A stretch of 64,000 nt of DNA from Stylophora pistillata (lineage: Eukaryota), in NCBI RefSeq assembly GCF_002571385.2, contig NW_019217826.1, forward strand, positions 81,172-145,171. The letters are read 5' to 3'. The first letter of the stretch is position 1. Every line of letters begins with the position of its first letter. The notes beneath the pieces are model-generated. The model had not been told where the DNA came from. It did no database searches and saw only the letters and a program-made list of their open reading frames with translations. The translations under genes and the position numbers were made by a program. Below, piece after piece: positions 38,013 to 41,000 of the stretch.

Positions 38013-41000
38013 TCAGTTTTCAATAAACTAAAATATCATAAAAATACCACAAGGTAATGGTATGAGATAAACTCACTCCATGGAACACAAACCCTCACAA
38101 GTGAGAAGGTTATTGGAGCATTTGTACCAGAATTCCAACAAATTAACTTATTCAGCAAATTACCTTGTTTTATCGCCGCTGTACACAGGTAACAAACTCT
38201 ACCAATTTTAAACTCCAAGTAGGGAAATCTGGCCAGCTGTGAACAGCAGGTGTTGCAAAATATCTGTTTATGGAAAAACAATCAATATGGTATGTGAATA
38301 CTTTTTCATGCCAAAAAAAATTCCATTGCCATTGTTGTACAATTATATTCATAAATTGTGACAAGCTCCACCTGTTGGAAGAGAATTTGACTATTTCATT
38401 TCTTGGTTACTGGATCAATAAAATCACCTTAAGCTATTTATGCCCTTTACATCCTAACACCAGTGTGCATATTCTCCATACTTTTCTCTAAATATTTCCT
38501 AAAGTACTGATAAGGAGAATTTGCTTAACAATCAAGAGTTCCTTTTAAAGTGCATATGACACGAAATTTTTTTCTCTTGTTTCTTGTAGTTGAATATCTA
38601 TAGGAAATGTTTCGAAGCTTTAAAAGTGCTGGAAAATGTAAAAAGCATTTTTTTGCTTTTTGAATTCGCGCAATTTGCCTTCAAATTTGTCCCAGAGACT
38701 GAGACCTCATTTATCGCCATCGAAGTTATTCATGATGTGACATTGTGTACCTTTGCCGCGAAGGTCTGTTGTCGCTAAGAGGATTCTGCAGTACTTCGAA
38801 GTAGATAGATAGTGCATTGAAAGGCAAAGATGTCCAGTGATTCTAATGATTCCTTTGAGTCTGACTCTTCTGAAAGTTCCATTAACTTTGAAGAATCTGG
38901 GTACACAATGTGACATCACGTGCGATTTTGGCCGCGTGATGACCGGGACAAATTTGAAGGAAAATTGCACGTATTTTGAAAGCAAAAAGAATGCTTTTTA
39001 GATTTTTTCCAGCACTTTTAAGGCTTTGAAACGTTTTCTATAGATATCCAACTACAAGAAACAAGAGAAAAAAGTTTCGTGTCAAATGCACTTTAATTAG
39101 TAGATGATCATTACTTCCTTTGTTCTTGTGACCTTATTAGGTGATTGAGGAGGGGGGGGGGAGGTTGATCCTGTATGGAGTAGTCAGTCTTAGGAGTCAC
39201 ATGGTTAATAGATAACAAAAAGCTTTGAGAAGAGATAGCACCCATAGCCAGAGAAACTAGCCACAGGATAATCTTTCTTAATCTTTCTTTCAACTATACC
39301 TCACAGCATTTAACAATCGATTACCTTTCCACAACCTCAACAATGATGTTTCCTGATAAAAAGTGTAAACTTTACTTTACAGCCAGTACAATTGAGGCAA
39401 GCAAAGTCAGGTACCCAGTGAGGGGCCACACTCCCAGGCTGAAAGAAAAAAATACAATCTTTTCTTCATATCTTCATACAATCAAATGCTTGGAGTAATT
39501 TTCTGACACCAGTCTACCTATAGAACAAGACAGTTGGTGCTCAAACAGCCAAACATGAAGTTAATGGACCACAAATTTGAACTCAATATTTAGCCCCACA
39601 AATGATTGACATGTAACTTCTCCTGTACATTTCAATATCTTATCTTTCTAACAGGTAATGAGAACAAACAAGCTTATCAACTGAAGACTATCCTCTTGAT
39701 ATGACACCAAATCCCCCTGTCTAGTTTACAGGGACATGTATAGCAGCCAGAAGGGAAAATACTCGTTGGATTATGGGACTTGAAGGGTTCATCAGAATGC
39801 TGCTTTTGGGAAATTCACCAGATAGAGAAATCTCTCAAACTTCTGAAGCAAAGTCATTGCTTGTATGAAATGCAAATTTGCAAGTTTGATACTAGCAACA
39901 ATGGAAAGATACTAAATATTCAAATAATAGTTTCAATGAAAAAAAAAAAGATTACTCGAAGGATAAAGCTTGACCTGCGAGCTCTAAACAAAAATAAATC
40001 AAAATGCTGATACAGTCTTAACACCATCAACTTGAGGAAAATGCTTGGGCTGCTTCTGACAATAAAATTATATTATTCAGCTTACCACTTTTGCCTCAGG
40101 CTTCTTAGTATCTAAATGGATTTCTCCACTTTTCTGCAGTGTTTTTTGTGGTTTCGGCATCCCATGGCCGTTCTCATTTCTCTCCTGTTGTGGATGAGGA
40201 TTTTTGGTTGCATTTGTTGTTTCATTGATACCCAGTGGTTCAGCACAGCCAGCAGATGTATCAGGATAAGATGTCTCAATCAGTGTAACCATGGACTCAC
40301 TTGACAGTCTACGTCTAGGAGATCCATTTATCCCTCCCAGGTGGCCAACAGAACTATGCACTTCTGCTGCAACCACCACTTCAGTGGAACTGGGCAACTT
40401 TTGCTCATGCCTTCTTCTTTGTCTGGTACTCTTTGGAGGATCTGGAGTGAATGGGTTTGTTCCACTGCCACCAATCCCAGGATCCTGGTAAGCCCTGAAT
40501 TCCTTTGGTCTCGCACCCTGAAGTACAGTTGGTGAACTTGGAGGACCAAATAAAGAATATAGTGGTGCTTCTCCCCTACTAGGGTTTAGTGGGCTTTCTG
40601 CTTCAACATCATGATGTCCAGATTGCTGAACAACCAAGTCTTTAGCAAAAGGATTTGTGCTTGGGAAGCTGACCCTTGGAGATGCGAGTATGGCAGGTTT
40701 TTCTTGTTCTGTGGTTGGAGGCATCTCCTCTGCTGCAGCAGTGAAAGCCTTGTCAAGTTCAGATGAAGCTACCCATTCTGGTAATCCTTCAGTTTTTCCA
40801 CCATCTTTGTGTTCTCCATATTTTTCTGCCGCTGGAATCTTGTTTGAATGTTCCCCATTTAGTTGTGAAACACTGGAAATTTCTGTTGATAACACACCAC
40901 TGAGGTGATTTTTCTCTTTGGTACCAGCTTCTTCAACATCTCCTTGGTCGGCAAGAAATGTACCAGTCTGGTTCATTCTCTGAAAAAGTGCTTCTTTTGT

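What the first reader, a model, noticed from the sequence alone, without database searches (positions are those of the whole stretch)
39325..39438. In-frame TGA replaces the terminal Arg of the FYVE RKHHCR motif in an otherwise intact 14-exon gene
Seen: the exon reads ...TTT ATC AGG AAA CAT CAT TGT TGA GGT TGT GGA AAG = FIRKHHC*GCGK (TGA at 39339-39337). All 12 downstream exons are open with intact splice sites. Known: R(R/K)HHCR is the PI3P-binding signature of FYVE fingers. Inference: CGA>TGA by methyl-CpG deamination, so a young null allele, very recent pseudogenisation, or a consensus error. The exon is 114 nt and phase 0/0, so skipping it restores the frame and would give a FYVE-dead SARA-like isoform. 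Readthrough is an alternative. Selenocysteine is unlikely because the homologous residue is Arg, not Cys.
Basis: partly seen in the sequence, partly recalled or inferred. Interest (0 to 1): 0.7.

Follow-up and report, generated by a model that had tools for sequence, protein, structure and literature searches.

The report
False stop codon in coral assembly
The stop codon that breaks this coral endosome-adaptor gene in the assembled genome appears in none of four sequencing runs checked, which show two ordinary arginine codons instead, so the gene is likely intact and the stop is likely an assembly error at a naturally variable letter.

Summary
The TGA is in the assembly as described: codon 874 of 1838 in a 14-exon FYVE + SARA_C gene, its only internal stop. 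It is absent from 4 of 4 runs laid. Two DNA-type contig sets read CGA. A spliced 6.8-kb RNA-type contig and 3 of 3 raw RNA reads read AGA. Both codons are Arg, and that contig includes exon 2. So the site segregates C/A and the assembly's T is a third letter. This argues against a fixed null, pseudogene, readthrough or exon skipping. The likeliest cause is a heterozygous-site ambiguity letter (M) left uncomplemented when a contig was flipped (inferred, about 0.6). A second gene of this assembly shows the same signature: TAG at an invariant Tyr, plus another third-letter site. A controlled test was only suggestive (3/6 vs 5/38, p=0.06). A rare heterozygous CGA>TGA allele is not excluded (about 0.08): contigs drop alleles, raw depth was 3, and no laid run is shown to be the assembled individual. 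The scan held no look-alike of this gene. Verdict: most likely an artefact; low biological interest, useful as a caution.

The parts
39337..39339 (-). TGA in the assembly at codon 874, the last Arg of RKHHCR; read as CGA or AGA in the runs laid
40086..42605 (-). coding exon 1 (840 codons, acidic and Ser-rich N-terminus)
   Evidence: joint 40086-39438 seen in an RNA-type contig
39325..39438 (-). exon 2: first half of the FYVE finger (WVPD, CxxC, RKHHC[R]xCG); 114 nt, phase 0/0; included in the RNA-type contig
38164..38263 (-). exon 3: second half of FYVE (CxxCC, RVCxxC)
   Evidence: the loose end of the X11 contig matches its start
35660..36937 (-). exon 4: Pro/Gln/Ser/Thr-rich linker
35396..35461 (-). 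exon 5
34774..34944 (-). exon 6; start of the region like the human ZFYVE9 C-terminal domain
33473..33570 (-). exon 7
32437..32566 (-). exon 8 (SARA_C)
29577..29683 (-). exon 9
28273..28368 (-). exon 10
26773..26935 (-). exon 11
26367..26447 (-). exon 12
24472..24926 (-). exon 13
24080..24217 (-). exon 14, ending in the natural TAG
39314..39314 (+). intron-2 letter where the assembly (C) differs from both DNA-type runs (A); a possible second mis-written site

Best explanation
The T of this TGA is absent from all four runs laid, which read CGA or AGA (both Arg), so it is likely an assembly error and the gene likely encodes an intact 1838-residue FYVE + SARA_C protein. Shown: no run carries T; two synonymous alleles exist; an RNA-type contig joins exons 1-2-3 with AGA. 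Inferred mechanism (about 0.6 on its own): the assembled animal was C/A heterozygous and the assembler wrote M. A later scaffolding script reverse-complemented the contig without turning M into K, and M was then resolved to A on the + strand, which reads T on the coding strand. The assembly letter is then the complement of one true allele. Inferred function, by homology only: the FYVE finger would bind PI3P and place a SARA/endofin-like scaffold on early endosomes.
For: place 39339. X1 (one contig spanning the whole stretch, depth 29.8) and X7 (depth 271.6) read G on + (CGA). X11 (6787-nt contig, depth 62.3, joint 39438-40086, loose end = start of exon 3) and X23 (3 of 3 raw RNA reads, 2 starts) read T on + (AGA). 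A real TGA allele would make the site three-allelic. X11 has no other difference in 328 exonic letters and holds 0.56 of the words, against a computed exonic ceiling of 0.564; this suggests a genotype very near the assembly. Arg is in 7 of 7 full-length homologues covering the motif and AGA in 3 of 3 metagenome loci. There is no other lesion in 1838 codons; exons 2-14 are 77-96% identical to P0042. Second case, L009: the assembly has TAG where 15 of 15 read-through homologues, three of them near-identical, have Tyr, and Pro (CCT) where near-identical proteins have Arg or Leu, again a third letter. ALLPATHS-LG writes ambiguity codes at single-base branches (PMC5905499, section 12 read). A public S. 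pistillata assembly was built with ALLPATHS-LG, L_RNA_scaffolder, SSPACE and GapFiller (PMC5730576, section 14 read).
Against: No laid run is shown to be the assembled individual. Contigs show one path and drop alleles. The raw reads are 3, from 2 starts. A CGA allele exists, so CpG deamination to TGA has a substrate. Against the specific mechanism: the controlled cluster test is not significant (3/6 vs 5/38, p=0.063; 2/5 vs 5/38, p=0.18 without the stop that drew me to L009). The window gene shows no excess of such changes against cross-genus orthologues (8/40 vs 7/34, p=1.0). Of 5 internal stops aligned, 1 fits, 2 do not and 2 are unclear. Only 1 of 148 GPCR matches holds a stop (1-5.5 expected). 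That these scaffolders leave IUPAC letters uncomplemented is my recall, from no call. That assembly was run with HAPLOIDIFY=True, which should leave fewer ambiguity letters (recalled).
Confidence: 0.88

Rival explanations
1. A real, rare heterozygous (or somatic) nonsense allele CGA>TGA in the assembled colony, picked for the haploid consensus. Its mRNA would be removed by nonsense-mediated decay (the stop lies upstream of 12 junctions), and a second SARA-like gene might buffer it.
For: A CGA allele exists, so methyl-CpG deamination is possible. Contigs of a C/T heterozygote can show C alone. A paralogue with intact RRHHCR exists on C268. An earlier unchecked note reports stops segregating in another gene of this genome (e1-8630198).
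Against: It needs three alleles at one codon position. T is in 0 of 4 runs, including the best holder. The RNA-type run that holds nearly all exonic words shows A, which a C/T animal could not give.
Confidence: 0.08
2. Fixed null or very recent pseudogene in this species or population, possibly rescued by skipping exon 2 (a FYVE-dead isoform), by the cryptic donor at 39375 that PFX30893.1 uses, or by readthrough.
For: Skipping keeps the frame. The named records XP_022781852.1 (ends at RKHHC) and PFX30893.1 (intron predicted across the stop) reflect the break.
Against: Both named records are annotations of an assembly with the same letter, so they are not independent. All 4 runs carry an Arg codon, the RNA-type contig includes exon 2 whole, and the 3 raw reads span it. 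Exon 3 lay outside the stretch laid, so a minor skip form was not tested directly; no loose end at 40086 is among the 11 of 12 rows shown.
Confidence: 0.01
3. DNA is CGA throughout and the AGA in RNA is a C-to-A RNA-DNA difference (or strongly allele-specific expression), with the assembly T an unrelated error.
For: The split is clean: both DNA-type runs show C and both RNA-type runs show A.
Against: Such a split arises 1 time in 8 if each run shows either allele at random. The runs come from four samples, with no matched DNA-RNA pair. The change is synonymous. AGA is the codon in 3 of 3 related corals. Animal editing is mainly A-to-I and C-to-U (abstract of PMC4449034 in search listing). It leaves the T unexplained.
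Confidence: 0.02
4. Selenocysteine or programmed recoding of a real UGA.
For: None beyond the in-frame TGA next to Cys-rich motifs.
Against: The column is Arg in all homologues, RNA reads carry AGA, and Rfam found no SECIS in 21800-24300 at E<=1 (3 weak unrelated hits).
Confidence: 0.005

Closest known systems
Human ZFYVE9 (SARA; PDB 4bkw_A) and ZFYVE16 (endofin; PDB 3t7l_A); Pfam PF01363 FYVE + PF11979 SARA_C
   Same: Long low-complexity N-terminus, central classic FYVE finger, C-terminal SARA_C region. Orthologue P0042 hits FYVE at 57.8 bits and SARA_C at 83.6 bits, both over cut-off; best PDB hits are 4bkw (E 4.6e-18) and 3t7l (E 6.1e-17).
   Different: No PF11409 Smad-binding domain hit in 4 proteins scanned or in the genome (a blank without a positive control). 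SARA_C is divergent, and a second gene on C268 matches PF11979 better, so this one is likely a divergent paralogue.
XP_022781852.1 (LOC111322898, 873 aa) and PFX30893.1 (ZFYVE16, 1485 aa), Stylophora pistillata
   Same: 100% identical to exon 1; the same locus.
   Different: Both are shaped by the TGA. One stops at RKHHC; the other splices from a cryptic GT around the stop, loses the motif and ends early. The runs support a full 1838-aa frame instead.
False premature stops from consensus errors in short-read diploid assemblies
   Same: A lone stop in a conserved, spliced, expressed gene that reads do not support.
   Different: Here the wrong letter is a third base, complementary to one of two true alleles. 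I found no paper describing this for this assembly or pipeline (search listings; passages of 4 papers besides the assembly and FYVE papers); supplements were not read.

Membership tests
Classic FYVE finger | N-terminal WxxD (PMC3017826, passages read) | tested here: met
   WVPD in exon 2
Classic FYVE finger | Central R(R/K)HHCR | tested here: met
   RKHHC* in the assembly, but an Arg codon (CGA or AGA) in 4 of 4 runs laid
Classic FYVE finger | C-terminal R(V/I)C and eight zinc-ligand cysteines | tested here: met
   CTGC, HHC-x-GC, CNTCC and RVCYLC across exons 2-3; PF01363 over cut-off in orthologues
Classic FYVE finger | Binds PI3P and targets endosomes | not testable with these tools
   Inferred from the motifs only
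SARA/endofin (ZFYVE9/ZFYVE16) | FYVE followed by SARA_C (PF11979) | tested here: met
   P0042 83.6 bits and P0001 68.4 bits over the cut-off of 25; 4bkw_A E 4.6e-18
SARA/endofin (ZFYVE9/ZFYVE16) | Smad-binding domain (PF11409) after the FYVE finger | tested here: inconclusive
   No hit in 4 proteins. None anywhere in the genome either, including the paralogue, and no control rang
SARA/endofin (ZFYVE9/ZFYVE16) | One-to-one orthology by a tree | not tested
   No tree built; a better-matching paralogue exists
Pseudogene / fixed null | Disabling change present in the DNA and RNA of individuals | tested here: not met
   0 of 4 runs carry the stop
Pseudogene / fixed null | Further decay (frameshifts, lost splice sites, loss of conservation) | tested here: not met
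   13 GT-AG introns, no second lesion, 77-96% identity per exon to P0042; dN/dS not computed
Selenoprotein / readthrough gene | UGA in the mRNA, at a Cys column, with a SECIS | tested here: not met
   AGA in RNA; Arg column; no SECIS hit
Mis-complemented ambiguity-code error | Assembly letter is neither allele and is the complement of one | tested here: met
   T against C/A at 39339; C against alleles inferred as G/T from Arg/Leu at L009 codon 324
Mis-complemented ambiguity-code error | Both alleles present in the one assembled individual | not testable with these tools
   The alleles were seen in different runs; no raw genomic reads were offered
Mis-complemented ambiguity-code error | Enrichment of the signature across the assembly | tested here: inconclusive
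   3/6 vs 5/38, p=0.063; 2/5 vs 5/38, p=0.18; GPCR stop count uninformative

The most novel reading that the evidence does not exclude
The error is systematic. In the flipped contigs of this assembly, heterozygous sites were written as the complement of one allele, planting false stops (Tyr>TAA/TAG, Cys>TGA, Arg>TGA) and false amino-acid changes (S/R, F/L, N/K, D/E) across the genome. Some public S. pistillata proteins (XP_022781852.1, PFX30893.1, PFX34049.1/XP_022792597.1) would then be truncated by it, and other ALLPATHS-LG plus SSPACE-type assemblies could share it.
Probability: 0.5. Interest if true: 0.3.

Novelty: not a real feature. Interest (0 to 1): 0.1.

Why it matters
Biologically little: the gene is likely an ordinary intact SARA/endofin-like paralogue, and two public protein records for it are likely wrong. 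The practical point is for this scan and for coral genomics. Lone stops and lineage-specific residues in this assembly should be checked against reads before being called gene loss, recoding or adaptation. If the third-letter error is systematic, it would inflate pseudogene counts, dN/dS and reference-allele-based variant or editing calls, and it could be repaired by one polishing pass.

Tried and rejected
(1) SOAP-type 2-bit conversion of IUPAC letters (M to T on the coding strand) fits 39339, but not the Tyr>TAG of L009, and no SOAP step is named in the assembly section read. Set aside for the uncomplemented-letter reading. A fixed 'first letter' resolution also fails (L009 codon 278 needs R to G), so resolution would be arbitrary.
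(2) Strand-by-stop-type test: PF00001 gave 1 stop in 148 matches, PF06990 gave 4 of 21 matches with stops, and PF00520 gave 19 of 66, many likely introns. Of 14 such matches cut out, 9 had their stops at match or exon edges; 5 were aligned, with 1 fitting, 2 not and 2 unclear. Too few.
(3) GPCR cluster test: 10 looked up, 8 found. Two had no member at 96% or more, one was dropped because its only near member sat in a Pocillopora-named cluster, and two had a single near member (1 difference each, neither fitting). Three were usable.
(4) Window gene against cross-genus orthologues: no enrichment.
(5) No full-length same-species protein turned up in the 'longer' search (2 hits), and the locus's cluster has no Logan member. 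Uninformative.
(6) Exon-13 search of 50% representatives gave 15 unnamed hits; not pursued.
(8) No paper on this coral gene among the 12 listed.

Full report
Observation. The exon at 39438-39325 on the minus strand is 114 nt, has AG and GT flanks and reads ...FIRKHHC*GCGK, with TGA at 39339-39337. With homologues as guides I built a 14-exon model from 42605 to 24080. All 13 introns are GT-AG, the frame has 1838 codons, and the only internal stop is codon 874. Exon 2 is phase 0/0 and its removal keeps the frame.

What the gene is. Full-length orthologues P0042, P0049 and P0055 (79% identical; unnamed) and P0001, P0096, P0002 and P0098 (48-52%) all read RKHHCRGCGK: 7 of 7 that cover the motif. 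P0042 carries FYVE and SARA_C over Pfam's cut-offs, and its best solved relatives are human ZFYVE9 and ZFYVE16. WxxD, R(R/K)HHCR and RVC are the classic PI3P-binding motifs (PMC3017826, passages). A second gene on G000:C268 has an intact RRHHCR and matches SARA_C better, so the window gene is likely a divergent paralogue; no Smad-binding-domain hit was found for either. Two named Stylophora pistillata records cover the locus: XP_022781852.1 ends at RKHHC, and PFX30893.1 splices round the stop from a cryptic GT. They are annotations of an assembly with the same letter, not independent evidence.

The decisive test. Of 24 runs listed, four were laid on 39200-40300. None shows the assembly's letter at 39339. 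X1 (DNA by guess; best holder; one contig across the whole stretch) and X7 (kind not on record; covers the introns) read G on +, giving CGA. X11 (RNA by guess; a 6787-nt contig that skips the 647-nt intron 1 and continues into the start of exon 3) reads T on +, giving AGA. So do 3 of 3 raw RNA reads of X23 (2 starts). Both codons are Arg. Three coral-like metagenome loci, found with a pattern that would have admitted TGA, all have AGA. The site thus segregates C/A, and T is a third letter. Limits: contigs show one path and drop alleles, raw depth was 3, the four runs are four samples, and none is shown to be the assembled individual. X11 holds 0.56 of the words against an exonic ceiling of 0.564, which suggests but does not show a genotype very near the assembly.

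How the T likely arose (inferred). ALLPATHS-LG converts single-base branches into ambiguity codes (PMC5905499, section 12 read). A public S. pistillata assembly was made with ALLPATHS-LG (HAPLOIDIFY=True), then L_RNA_scaffolder, SSPACE and GapFiller (PMC5730576, passages and section 14 read). I did not establish that G000 is that assembly, only that named records carry the same break. From recall, not from a call, such scripts complement only A, C, G and T. An M left as M on a flipped contig and later resolved to A reads T on the coding strand. The rule predicts that the wrong letter is the complement of one true allele.

Tests of that rule. Searching other families for internal stops gave one clear second case. 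L009 (G000:C7:842382-843407, minus strand) is a galactose-3-O-sulfotransferase-like frame with TAG at a column that is Tyr in 15 of 15 read-through homologues aligned (16 picked; the 16th, named PFX34049.1/XP_022792597.1, ends there). In the same frame the assembly alone has Ser (AGC) for Arg, Pro (CCT) where near-identical proteins have Arg or Leu, and Asn (AAT) for Ile. By my reading of the codons, the stop and the Ser fit a synonymous heterozygous site, the Pro fits two observed alleles, and the Asn does not fit the synonymous rule. A control on GPCR clusters (10 asked, 3 usable) added two assembly-only residues, one fitting. Pooled, 3 of 6 assembly-only residues fit against 5 of 38 variants among the other members: p=0.063, or 0.18 without the ascertained stop. 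Against the rule: two other internal stops do not fit and two are unclear, the window gene shows no enrichment against cross-genus orthologues (8/40 vs 7/34), and only 1 of 148 GPCR matches has a stop (1-5.5 expected, so uninformative). The mechanism is plausible, about 0.6, not shown.

Rivals. A real heterozygous CGA>TGA allele is possible because CGA exists and contigs hide alleles, but it needs three alleles at one position and is seen in no run (about 0.08). A fixed null, a skipped isoform or readthrough is contradicted by Arg codons in all runs and by inclusion of exon 2 (about 0.01); exon 3 was outside the stretch laid, so a minor skip form is untested. A C-to-A RNA-DNA difference fits the DNA/RNA split, but the split has a 1-in-8 chance under simple polymorphism and the change is silent (about 0.02). 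Selenocysteine is excluded by the Arg column, the AGA in RNA and the lack of a SECIS hit.

Earlier scan notes. No look-alike by sequence and no note on ambiguity codes. Two unchecked notes from this genome mention breaks absent from other samples; I did not test them.

Verdict. Interest 0.1. What remains of value is the possibility of a systematic third-letter error in this assembly (probability about 0.5, interest 0.3 if true). Supplements of the papers cited were not read and could mention handling of ambiguity codes.

Noticed in passing
L009 = G000:C7:842382-843407 (-): Galactose-3-O-sulfotransferase-like gene with TAG at an invariant Tyr; the named S. pistillata proteins end there while near-identical Logan proteins read through. 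Likely a second false stop, with further assembly-only residues at codons 215, 278 and 324.
   Followed up: partly
L006-L007 = G000:C268:28809-39500 (-): A second FYVE + SARA_C gene with intact RRHHCR and better PF11979 matches: this coral has two SARA/endofin-like genes, and the window gene is the divergent one. No tree built.
   Followed up: partly
window 39314, 39688, 39982: Three more differences between assembly and runs in 1.1 kb, all with C in the assembly and all transversions (C>A in both DNA-type runs; C>G in one run each).
   Followed up: partly
window 38560-39075: An inverted-repeat pair of about 150 bp in intron 2, seen by eye, like a small non-autonomous DNA transposon.
   Followed up: no
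window 44830-45700 (-): Decayed transposon-like coding remnants upstream of the gene (146-aa open stretch at 44903-45343, with nearby stops).
   Followed up: no
window 519-1067 (-) and 6327-10687 (+): Two divergently oriented membrane-protein genes that resemble CLN3/battenin (label recalled, from no call).
   Followed up: no
window 53544-55046 (-): A 500-aa open frame made of about three internal repeats with WWWxMVSTxG...SRWTVG motifs; family not looked up.
   Followed up: no
L005 = G000:C348:9352 (+): GPCR with TAA at a Lys codon of an 86%-identical paralogue (L043); does not fit the synonymous-site rule, possibly a real broken duplicate.
   Followed up: partly
window 28850-29480 and 30380-30620: Long simple repeats in introns of the gene (a pyrimidine-rich array and a trinucleotide array) that give spurious open frames.
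   Followed up: no
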